Source: an uncultured Bacilli bacterium
Lineage (GTDB): Bacteria > Bacillota_I > Bacilli_A > RF39 > UBA660
Length of the DNA: 41,980 nucleotides
NCBI GenBank assembly: GCA_947625085.1
Contig: CANQMV010000003.1
Span: forward strand, 1 to 41,980
Direction of reading: 5' to 3'
Position numbers and translations under genes: made by a program. Every line of letters begins with the position of its first letter. Position 1 is the stretch's first letter. The notes beneath the pieces are model-generated. The model saw only the letters and a list, made by a program, of their open reading frames with translations, did no database searches and was not told where the DNA came from. Below are positions 26,645 through 28,334 of the stretch, in pieces.

Positions 26645-28099
26645 TTAATCAAAAATAACGATATATGGCTCTAAACTACTTCCATCACCACTTGCAACTT
26701 TTACTTTAGAATTTAAATTAATAGTTGGATAAATAAGACCCGGGGTTTCTACATTACAATAATTAAGTTTTGAATTATTTAAACAAATAGCCGAATTTTT
26801 ATCTTTACTAGCTGGTGATAACAACCAAATATTATTATTTTTTGTAAATAAGGTTTCTAACCAACTTTTATTTTTAGAAAATGAGAATAAGTAATCACTT
26901 GGATATAATAGTCCAACTAATCCTCGCCATCTTGATTGATTAATTTCATAAATATTTTTAGCATTTCGCTCTTCTATATAAATAGTATTACTATCTAAAT
27001 TACTAAGACTTACATTTCCTAAATAATAAAGACTAGAATTAAGCATTTTTTGAGCATTATTTTCTAATAAACTTAAATAACCAGCAACTTTATTAGCACT
27101 TTCATCTGAATAATTATTTAAATAATAAGCAAGTCCAGCTTCTCCCCAATCATTATTACCAAGATAGCCATCTTTTTCTTGATAGTAATTCCAATAAGCT
27201 AAATTACTAGCTTCACTTTTTTGCTCATTTTCTAATAATTTAATATTATAATTTTTATCTCTAAATACATAATTAGTTGGTAAAATATAATCTTTTAAAT
27301 TATCATTTTTTATTATTTTAACATATTCAACTACTTCTAAATCATCATCAATTTCTGAAAATACTCCAACTATTCTCCATAATTCATTGTTAAATTTTAA
27401 ATAATTATTAACATCTAAACCTACATACCGATATTCTCTTATAATATCTTTTTCTTTATCATAACTTTGCCCATTTTGATTAATAGCTTCAATTCCTTTT
27501 TCTTTATTTTTAGTATTTTTTATTTCATCTATTAAATAAGTTGCATCATTAAAAGAATATAAATCAACTATTACATTAGTATCATAATTTTTATTTTCTA
27601 AATTAGAAACACCCGCTTCATTATCATATATTTTAACATAAAGCATTTCTGATTCATTTTTATTTAAATTATAACCTGTATAAATTATCATATCTTTATT
27701 TAATGTTTTAGTTTTGGTATAAGTTAATCCCTTATCAGTACTAATTTCATATTTAATAGTTTTATCTTTATAATAATCACTTAATTTAACTACAAACTTT
27801 TTAATTTCTTTTTCCCCAGTATTTGTTAAAGTTAAAATAAAAGGAATATTAGAGTTTTCATCACTTAAATTATCGGTATTTAAATTCATAAACTTAGTTG
27901 TTGTATCAACTTTCATATTTAAATCGCCATTTTGAAAACTTAAAATATTATTATTTCTATCAAAAGCTTTAAAATAAGCGTAACTACTTCCTAAAATTAT
28001 AAATATTAAACCAAAAACTGAGAAAGCAAAAATCTTTTTCTCTTTTTTCGTAAATTTAATATTTCTTTTTTTCTTAATTAATCTTGGTTCTTTCATCAT
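26645..28099 (-). CDS. Surface protein with SipW/TasA-type N-terminus and C-terminal C-type-lectin-like (DUF6273-like) domain
   Basis: Basic N-terminus, TM helix ending GSSYAYF..N..FQNGDL (SipW-cognate-like); YRYVG..NNYLKFNNELWRIVG; VGLLYPSDY; WLLSP...IYPTINL...SGDGS.LEPY. Confidence 0.65.
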   Translation of the reverse strand: MMKEPRLIKKKRNIKFTKKEKKIFAFSVFGLIFIILGSSYAYFKAFDRNNNILSFQNGDLNMKVDTTTKFMNLNTDNLSDENSNIPFILTLTNTGEKEIKKFVVKLSDYYKDKTIKYEISTDKGLTYTKTKTLNKDMIIYTGYNLNKNESEMLYVKIYDNEAGVSNLENKNYDTNVIVDLYSFNDATYLIDEIKNTKNKEKGIEAINQNGQSYDKEKDIIREYRYVGLDVNNYLKFNNELWRIVGVFSEIDDDLEVVEYVKIIKNDNLKDYILPTNYVFRDKNYNIKLLENEQKSEASNLAYWNYYQEKDGYLGNNDWGEAGLAYYLNNYSDESANKVAGYLSLLENNAQKMLNSSLYYLGNVSLSNLDSNTIYIEERNAKNIYEINQSRWRGLVGLLYPSDYLFSFSKNKSWLETLFTKNNNIWLLSPASKDKNSAICLNNSKLNYCNVETPGLIYPTINLNSKVKVASGDGSSLEPYIVIFD

Positions 28100-28334
28100 T
28101 AGTTGCTCCTTATAATTTTTTTTCTACTTCAAAAACCACTTTTTAGACTAATTTTAACTTAAAAATATTTTTATTTAAAATTAATCTTATTACTTACTTA
28201 TAATCTTTTCATTTCAAAATCCTCCTCTTAATTTGATTGATTTATATTATAATCTTTCAAATAATAATTAACAAGGTAGTTTACTTTTATTTACATAAGT
28301 ATAAAAAAAATTCTTAATTTTTTACTTTAAGAAT

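What the first reader, a model, noticed from the sequence alone, without database searches (positions are those of the whole stretch)
26645..28099. TasA/SipW-type surface protein whose C-terminus mirrors the DGR template but is no longer a target
Seen: LLSP-AS-KDKNS-A-ICL-NN-SKL-NYCN-V-ETPG-LIYP (26824-26726, 33 codons) aligns with one gap to the TR frame LLSP-SS-NNSNN-V-ANW-NTTGNV-NNNN-V-NNNN-AVRP (34 codons). At DNA level it differs at many non-adenine positions (TTGTTATCACCAGCT vs CTTTTGTCTCCCTCC; CTTATTTATCCA vs GCGGTTCGCCCC), so this TR cannot currently home to it. The N-terminus has a GSSYAYF SipW-cognate-like signal. Established: DGR targets typically have terminal C-type-lectin folds, and SipW substrates (TasA, CalY) form fibres. 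Inference: this DGR diversifies a family of fibre-forming lectin-tipped surface proteins, and this gene is a retired or frozen member.
Basis: partly seen in the sequence, partly recalled or inferred. Interest (0 to 1): 0.72.

Follow-up and report, generated by a model that had tools for sequence, protein, structure and literature searches.

The report
Undiversified paralogue of a retroelement target
This gene encodes a probable surface binding protein from a large family in a small gut bacterium; the window's mutagenic retroelement rewrites a sister gene on another contig, and nothing shows that this copy was ever a target.

Summary
The gene is real: 26645-28099, minus strand, 484 aa, intact. 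Its residues 426-458 (26824-26726) sit where the variable repeat (VR) lies in its relatives.

The true VR of the window's diversity-generating retroelement (DGR) is on another contig, C33:11890-11995. It differs from the template repeat (TR, 39748-39853) at 17 positions, all TR adenines. Its gene belongs to the same family (31% identity, E about 1e-34).

"Retired target" is not supported:
- The gene's DNA resembles the TR no more than shuffled sequence does.
- It lacks the GC-rich 3' anchor.
- It mismatches as many non-adenine positions as any ordinary paralogue (30, against 0-2 for live VRs).
- It lies on a long branch in a seven-member clade with no VR-bearing member.

Loss and gain of targeting do occur elsewhere in the family.

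The C-terminal half is a divergent DUF6273 domain, reported as C-type-lectin-like and as a phage DGR target. The TasA/SipW label fails every family-model test. What remains is a conserved G-S/T-S/T-Y-A-Y/F-F motif, four SipW-type peptidases in the genome, and one family member next to one of them.

Verdict: an ordinary, fixed paralogue in an interesting family.

The parts
26645..28099 (-). Gene of the finding: intact 484-aa two-module protein. It has no direct Pfam or NCBIfam hit.
   Evidence: AF2 model with mean pLDDT 82
27971..28036 (-). Hydrophobic export segment (residues 22-36) followed by the family motif GSSYAYF (residues 37-43). It is either a putative signal peptide or a signal anchor.
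   Evidence: sequence; the same G-[ST]-[ST]-Y-A-[YF]-[FL] motif occurs in paralogues; no TIGR04088 match
27545..27964 (-). N-terminal beta-sandwich module (about residues 46-185). It is shared with the VR-bearing gene and with short N-module-only proteins.
   Evidence: hhalign probability 98.9% (E 3e-17) to the C33/C2-type N-domain and 97.9% (E 6e-13) to the 258-292-aa proteins; AF2 models
26648..27487 (-). C-terminal divergent DUF6273-type (C-type-lectin-like) domain, about residues 205-484.
   Evidence: 308 bits to the family C-domain HMM; homologues annotated PF19789; Foldseek probability 1.0 to phage DUF6273 models; pLDDT above 90
26726..26824 (-). VR-equivalent stretch (L426-P458), fixed in the germline. 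It holds two Cys (C439, C448) that are absent from the TR and VR.
28246..28274 (-). Promoter-like site (TTGTTA-17-TATAAT) ahead of the gene.
   Evidence: a consensus match only
39748..39853 (-). Template repeat (TR) of the DGR.
39879..40979 (-). DGR reverse transcriptase (YMDD motif, LGAMTSQ motif).
   Evidence: RVT_1 4e-19; sequence
40963..41304 (-). Avd accessory protein.
   Evidence: bAvd 1.6e-6 and DivGenRetAVD 2.3e-7, both below the curated cut-offs
41297..41683 (-). 128-aa first gene of the cassette, unassigned. It is conserved upstream of avd in a relative's cassette (G004, locus L026).
41894..41980 (+). Copy (98.7% over the 77-base core) of the last codons and terminator of the VR-bearing gene of contig C33. 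It is inverted relative to the cassette, and contig C3 ends exactly here.

Best explanation
The gene encodes a non-diversified member of a large, fast-evolving family of exported two-module proteins in an uncultured, very AT-rich gut member of the Bacilli with a 1.19 Mb genome. The modules are as follows.
- An N-terminal export segment ends in a conserved G-S/T-S/T-Y-A-Y/F-F motif.
- It is followed by a roughly 140-residue beta-sandwich module.
- The C-terminal ~280 residues form a divergent DUF6273 domain, described in the literature as C-type-lectin-like.

Inferred: the C-domain binds a ligand through the loop formed by residues 426-458. In sister genes that same loop is the variable repeat rewritten by a DGR. 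In this genome the window's DGR (128-aa gene, avd, RT, TR at 39748-41683) acts in trans on one sister gene on contig C33. The gene of the finding instead carries a fixed loop that evolves by ordinary substitution.

Shown: the family relationship, the location of the true VR, the absence of any TR signature in this gene, and the DUF6273 relationship. Inferred: surface location, ligand binding, and processing of the N-terminus. Processing could be by one of the four SipW-type peptidases, or the segment could stay as a membrane anchor.
For: True VR: C33:11890-11995 shows 17 mismatches to the TR, all at TR adenines, and none elsewhere over 106 nt.

Paralogy: the 484-aa protein matches the C33 gene at E 1e-33 to 4e-36. 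Nine full-length C-domain paralogues and about ten with shorter double domains are in the genome.

No TR signature in this gene: the DNA score is at shuffle level. The best ungapped match has 30 non-adenine mismatches, within the 22-37 range of the other non-targets. Live VRs have 0-2. No other RT, avd or TR-like partner exists in the assembly.

Tree: the gene lies in a 7-row clade (support 85/88) with no live or near-VR member. That clade includes members from G017 and G004, genomes that do hold TRs. Within the clade the VR-equivalent stretch diverges like the rest of the protein.

DUF6273: homologues carry PF19789. Paralogue C24 scores 32.9 bits against a cut-off of 23.5, and the VR part of C33 hits profile positions 130-172. 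Foldseek gives probability 1.0 to phage DUF6273 models. DUF6273 is reported as C-type-lectin-like and as a DGR target (PMC10743442, PMC11792537).

Intactness: the frame is open, pLDDT exceeds 90 over most of the C-domain, and 23 columns are invariant across 40 homologues.
Against: - The gene's branch is very long (2.23), so its place in the tree is uncertain.
- VR status in relatives was scored only for fetched loci and only for TRs similar to this one, so VR-bearing members of its clade could have been missed.
- The 484-aa protein itself does not reach the Pfam DUF6273 model.
- No solved C-type-lectin structure was recovered.
- Nothing here demonstrates expression, export or binding.
- The assembly is 92.6% complete, so an unassembled second TR cannot be fully excluded.
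Confidence: 0.75

Rival explanations
1. Retired or frozen DGR target. The gene once carried a VR homed by this or an ancestral TR. It then lost targeting and has since drifted.
For: Targeting is gained and lost repeatedly in the family: the four live VR genes need at least four changes on the tree. Live targets have non-target sisters, for example own C35 beside G013_L013 and own C2 near G018_L029. Genes with 9-16 non-adenine mismatches look like decaying VRs or VRs of unsampled TRs. The stretch keeps the LLSP anchor, a terminal P, and an Asn-rich composition.
Against: - DNA similarity to the TR is at chance level.
- It has 30 non-adenine mismatches, the same as never-linked paralogues.
- The GC-rich 3' anchor is absent (CTTATTTATCCA against GCGGTTCGCCCC).
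- The conserved W in the middle of live VRs is replaced by L throughout its clade, and the Arg of VRP is lost.
- No member of its clade has a VR.
- The Asn richness is expected anyway in a genome of about 25% GC.

If it ever was a target, the event is too old to be told apart from never.
Confidence: 0.1
2. Filament-tip adhesin. The N-module is a polymerising subunit processed by a SipW-type peptidase. The 258-292-aa N-module-only proteins form the shaft. Proteins such as this one add a lectin-like head.
For: - Eight N-module-only proteins sit in tandem arrays on C7, C20, C42 and C92 and are homologous to the N-domains of the long proteins.
- Their AVVGVSFAFFTYSK N-terminus is almost identical in distant gut bacteria, and more than 900 relatives were found.
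- The genome holds four SipW-type peptidases above the cut-off. One, on C7, is directly next to an N-module gene (E 1.9e-12).
- The best genome-wide match to the SipW-cognate signal model, though sub-threshold, is the N-terminus of paralogue C56.
- In homologue P0036 the same C-domain is fused to a type IV prepilin N-terminus.
Against: - No match to Peptidase_M73 (TasA) or TIGR04088.
- A profile search of PDB sequences finds nothing.
- Fold search of the N-domain gives only generic jelly-roll hits with TM-score at most 0.28 and no TasA in the 50 matches listed.
- Relatives of the short proteins in other bacteria have no SipW gene within 8 kb.
- The gene of the finding has no peptidase or short-subunit neighbour.
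Confidence: 0.25
3. Target of a second DGR or TR that the fragmented assembly missed.
For: The assembly has 96 contigs and is 92.6% complete. Congeners carry 2-5 TRs each.
Against: There is no second RT, avd or 128-aa gene in the assembly. Nothing in it resembles the 256 bases at the gene's 3' end. The stretch lacks a GC-rich anchor of the kind all TRs of the genus share.
Confidence: 0.03

Closest known systems
DUF6273 (PF19789) domain proteins that serve as DGR targets in gut phages (tentaclins, PMC10743442; Faecalibacterium prophages, PMC11792537)
   Same: The C-terminal globular domain is of the same kind: homologues are annotated PF19789, and Foldseek gives probability 1.0 to phage DUF6273 models. 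In sister genes the VR maps to the C-terminal end of the domain, as in those phages.
   Different: This is a chromosomal gene with housekeeping neighbours (polA upstream, ftsK about 1.6 kb downstream) and no phage genes beside it. It is fused to an unannotated N-terminal export and beta-sandwich module. This copy has no VR and does not itself reach the Pfam threshold.
Bacteroides DGRs that diversify adhesive subunits of type V pili (Macadangdang et al., bioRxiv 10.1101/2024.11.15.621889)
   Same: A gut bacterium uses a chromosomal DGR on the ligand-binding end of a surface-protein family that also has many undiversified relatives.
   Different: The phylum, the N-terminal module and the export signal all differ. 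A pilus or fibre is not shown here.
TasA/CalY fibres and SipW-cognate signal peptides of Bacillus (PF12389, TIGR04088, TIGR02228)
   Same: The motif ...G-S-S-Y-A-Y-F after a hydrophobic stretch resembles the SipW-cognate pattern (recalled from memory, so a lead only). The genome encodes four SipW-type peptidases.
   Different: No family model matches, no fold match was found, and the gene has no sipW-tasA-like operon around it.

Membership tests
DGR variable-repeat-bearing target gene | A stretch that matches the TR with mismatches confined to TR adenines | tested here: not met
   48 matches, 12 adenine and 42 non-adenine mismatches, with a score at shuffle level. The best ungapped window against 19 TRs of the genus has 30 non-adenine mismatches. 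The sister gene on C33 meets the feature: 0 non-adenine and 17 adenine mismatches.
DGR variable-repeat-bearing target gene | A GC-rich 3' anchor shared with the TR (the homing site) | tested here: not met
   CTTATTTATCCA here against GCGGTTCGCCCCAG, which the TR and the C33 VR share.
DGR variable-repeat-bearing target gene | A cognate RT and accessory gene in the genome | tested here: met
   One cassette at 39748-41683 and no second one. This is a property of the genome, not of this gene.
DUF6273 (PF19789), C-type-lectin-like | A match to the Pfam model at the gathering score | tested here: not met
   The 484-aa protein has no hit at E <= 0.1. Paralogue C24 scores 32.9 bits against 23.5, and the C33 VR part gives E 0.003. 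About 20 of its 119 homologues are annotated PF19789.
DUF6273 (PF19789), C-type-lectin-like | Fold similarity to DUF6273 or C-type-lectin structures | tested here: inconclusive
TasA/camelysin fibre proteins (PF12389) | A family-model match | tested here: not met
   No hit for this protein, its paralogues or the short N-module proteins. The only weak genome hit is an unrelated ORF on C15.
TasA/camelysin fibre proteins (PF12389) | A TasA-like fold in the N-domain | tested here: inconclusive
   The N-domain model has pLDDT 69. The top PDB hits are cupin or jelly-roll proteins with TM-score at most 0.28, and TasA is not among the 50 matches listed.
SipW-cognate signal peptide (TIGR04088) | A model match at the N-terminus | tested here: not met
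   None for this protein at E <= 10. The best match in the genome is paralogue C56 at 12.4 bits against a cut-off of 19.
SipW-cognate signal peptide (TIGR04088) | A SipW-type (archaeal-type) signal peptidase is present | tested here: met
   Four matches to TIGR02228 at 84-94 bits against a cut-off of 51.85. One is flanked by an N-module family gene.
SipW-cognate signal peptide (TIGR04088) | Cleavage by SipW | not testable with these tools
   Needs N-terminal sequencing or proteomics.

The most novel reading that the evidence does not exclude
The conserved N-module (hallmark ...GVSFAFFTYSKTG / GSSYAYF) defines an undescribed surface-filament or display system of gut Firmicutes. Short N-module-only proteins would build the structure. 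Long paralogues would add interchangeable heads: lectin-like single or double domains, leucine-rich repeats, or Ig-like repeats. In this genus, DGRs with several TRs would diversify a shifting subset of the lectin heads, while copies such as this one form a fixed repertoire. That would be a Gram-positive counterpart of the DGR-diversified type V pili of Bacteroides.
Probability: 0.2. Interest if true: 0.7.

Novelty: new member of a known kind. Interest (0 to 1): 0.38.

Why it matters
The gene itself is an ordinary fixed paralogue. Its value is as a marker. It shows that this genome of about 1.2 Mb spends some 25-30 genes on one modular surface-protein family. Only one member is currently rewritten by the DGR. 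Across the genus, which member is rewritten changes repeatedly.

That makes the family a natural system for two questions. How do DGR targets get recruited and abandoned? What distinguishes a hypermutated binding loop from a fixed one on the same scaffold?

Tried and rejected
- Pfam and NCBIfam scans of the protein, its N-terminus, its paralogues and the neighbours of the SipW-type genes gave nothing informative for the N-module.
- Six-frame genome searches for Peptidase_M73 and TIGR04088 gave only sub-threshold hits.
- Foldseek of the whole model and of the N-domain against the PDB gave only generic beta-sandwich hits.
- Profile searches of PDB sequences with the full family and with the N-module found nothing.
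- Code 4 (TGA read as Trp) as an explanation for the in-frame TGA in the C33 gene was rejected. TGA ends 70 of 581 long ORFs with short extensions beyond it, and only tRNA-Trp(CCA) is present.
- A direct join of C33 to the end of C3 was rejected: no exact end overlap of 15 bases or more was found, though the last 87 bases of C3 repeat an internal stretch of C33 (12047-12133), about 130 bases before that contig's end.
- A positional orthologue was sought. The best hits in 19 congeners share no neighbours with this gene. Downstream of polA, one relative holds a different 796-aa family member and another holds none.
- Rfam found nothing in 39000-41980.
- The search for related loci with the family alignment failed because no stretch was conserved enough.

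Full report
**What is there.** The window is a whole contig (C3) of a 96-contig, 1.19 Mb assembly with about 25% GC. The genome uses the standard bacterial code. TGA ends 70 of 581 long ORFs, and only tRNA-Trp(CCA) is present. PolA is 80% identical to that of uncultured Bacilli MAGs from rabbit, deer and sheep guts. The gene of the finding is an intact 484-codon ORF at 26645-28099 on the minus strand. It lies between a 157-aa ORF downstream of polA and a convergent DUF192 gene. It has no direct Pfam or NCBIfam match.

**The DGR and its real target.** On the minus strand at 41683-39748 lie four parts in order:
- a 128-aa gene with no family assignment;
- avd (bAvd 1.6e-6);
- a reverse transcriptase (RT; RVT_1 4e-19, with YMDD and LGAMTSQ motifs);
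- a 106-nt template repeat (TR), 25 bases after the RT stop.

No variable repeat (VR) is in the window. In the rest of the genome a single VR exists, at C33:11890-11995. It has 17 differences from the TR, all at TR adenines, and none at the other positions. Its gene (C33:10338-12074, 579 codons) has the same architecture as the gene of the finding and is homologous along its length (31% identity, E 1e-33 to 4e-36). In this assembly it carries an in-frame TGA at codon 192, where paralogues have Trp.

**Check of the observation.** Residues 426-458 (26824-26726) do align with the TR-encoded peptide with one gap. The score is modest, reached by 4 of 1000 shuffles, and rests on LLSP and Asn content. 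At DNA level the alignment is no better than chance, reached by 82 of 500 shuffles, with 42 mismatches at non-adenine positions. The stretch is the positional equivalent of a VR in a homologous domain. It is not a relic copy of the TR.

**The family.** The genome holds nine genes with the full C-domain of about 300 residues (C2, C3, C8, C27, C33, C35, C47, C64, C82). About ten more have shorter, doubled versions of it. Many lie at contig ends. An HMM of the N-module finds 22 ORFs (20 genes). The 484-type subgroup (C3, C27, C31, C32, C87) adds to that count. These include eight N-module-only proteins of 258-292 aa in tandem arrays, and long proteins whose heads are leucine-rich or Ig-like repeats. 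All share a motif after the hydrophobic segment: GSSYAYF, GITYAFY, GVSFAFFTYSK or GSTYAFFTYSK.

**The C-domain.** About 20 of the gene's 119 database homologues are annotated PF19789 (DUF6273). Paralogue C24 passes the Pfam threshold. The VR part of the C33 gene aligns to the C-terminal end of the model. The AF2 model (pLDDT 82, above 90 over most of the C-domain) matches phage DUF6273 models at probability 1.0. Published work describes DUF6273 as C-type-lectin-like and as a DGR target whose VR lies at its C-terminus (PMC10743442, PMC11792537). I could not obtain a direct match to a solved C-type-lectin structure.

**Was this gene once a target?** Congeners carry similar TRs, often several per genome: G004 has five, G010 four or five. 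I scored 37 full C-domain genes against 19 TRs. This gave three groups:
- four live VRs with 0-2 non-adenine mismatches (own C33, G013, G014, G018);
- four intermediate genes with 9-16;
- 29 genes at background, with 22-37.

The gene of the finding scores 30. On a maximum-likelihood tree the four live targets are scattered, needing at least four changes, and have non-target sisters. So recruitment and loss of targeting are real processes in the family. The gene of the finding, however, sits on a very long branch in a separate seven-member clade (support 85/88). That clade has no live or intermediate member, although two of its members come from genomes that hold TRs. In that clade the VR-equivalent stretch is shorter, has L where live VRs keep a W, and diverges between species like the rest of the protein. 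The assembly has no second RT or avd and nothing resembling the gene's 3' end. I conclude that 'retired target' is unsupported for this gene. If it ever happened, it is too old to detect. The long branch and the incomplete sampling of relatives are the main caveats.

**TasA/SipW.** No model of TasA (PF12389) or of the SipW-cognate signal (TIGR04088) matches this protein, its paralogues or the short proteins. A family profile finds no PDB sequence. The N-domain model (pLDDT 69) gives only generic jelly-roll matches. In favour of a SipW-type route:
- The genome has four archaeal-type signal peptidases above the cut-off.
- The one on C7 is directly next to an N-module gene (E 1.9e-12) and about 10 kb from a three-gene array.
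- The best, though sub-threshold, genome match to TIGR04088 is the N-terminus of paralogue C56.

In favour of a filament-type role, the N-terminus of the short proteins is almost invariant across distant gut bacteria. One homologue also carries the same C-domain on a type IV prepilin N-terminus (P0036). Against a tight link, relatives of the short proteins in other bacteria have no such peptidase within 8 kb. This remains a hypothesis.

**Position in the genome.** The best matches in 19 congeners are only 34-41% identical and share no neighbours with this gene. Downstream of polA, one relative has a different 796-aa family member and another has none. The site is variable and the gene has no detectable one-to-one orthologue.

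**Limits.** Within-population variation at the VR and at the VR-equivalent stretch, and expression, could therefore not be examined.

**Verdict.** The gene is a fixed, undiversified member of a DUF6273-type surface-protein family whose sister is the true DGR target. The 'retired' and 'TasA' labels are not supported.

Noticed in passing
contig C33:10338-12074 of the same genome (locus L019): The only live-looking VR of this DGR sits in a gene with an in-frame TGA at codon 192, replacing a Trp conserved in paralogues. Paralogue C57 has two TAG stops, also at Trp positions. These could be G-to-A nonsense changes, an off state, or assembly consensus error.
   Followed up: partly
window 41894-41980 (+) and C33:12047-12133: The last 87 bases of the contig repeat the last codons and terminator of the VR-bearing gene (98.7% over the 77-base core). 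The copy is inverted relative to the DGR cassette, and the contig ends exactly at the repeat boundary. In relative G018 the VR lies about 2.1 kb upstream of the TR on the same strand, with the RT and avd directly upstream of the TR, so the local arrangement here may be rearranged or polymorphic.
   Followed up: partly
relatives G004 (L012, L021, L026, L031, L033), G010, G005, G014, G017, G018: Congeners carry 2-5 distinct TR units, each with the same conserved 3' flank. Some are tandem or far from any RT: G004:C28 has two units 331 bases apart, and L012 lies between unrelated genes. These look like multi-template DGRs.
   Followed up: partly
window 28198-28212 (-): A four-codon mini-ORF (MKRL-stop) with a strong AAGAGGAGG ribosome-binding site lies in the leader of the gene, downstream of the promoter-like site at 28246-28274. 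It has no poly-G run like the leaders noted earlier for other surface-protein genes of this genome.
   Followed up: no
own genome C1:64427-65140, C1:68718-69404, C7:11123-11740, C15:1880-2968: This 1.19 Mb genome has four SipW-type (TIGR02228) signal peptidase genes. Each lies next to small exported proteins with GTYAKY, VTYSKY, GTYCWY or GYSTFA N-termini.
   Followed up: partly
own genome C16:14919-16484, C60:3-1733, C82:2666-5476: The same N-module is fused to other heads: leucine-rich-repeat-like repeats (IPNSVxxIGxxAF) and long Ig-like repeat arrays.
   Followed up: no
L088-L093 (human gut metagenome contigs): In a spore-forming gut bacterium, two N-module-only homologues (about 211-213 aa), preceded by an unannotated 191-aa gene, sit in tandem between tatD and spoVG. 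The two sequenced here begin with a nearly invariant AVVGVSFAFFTYSK N-terminus. The family has no Pfam model and no names.
   Followed up: partly
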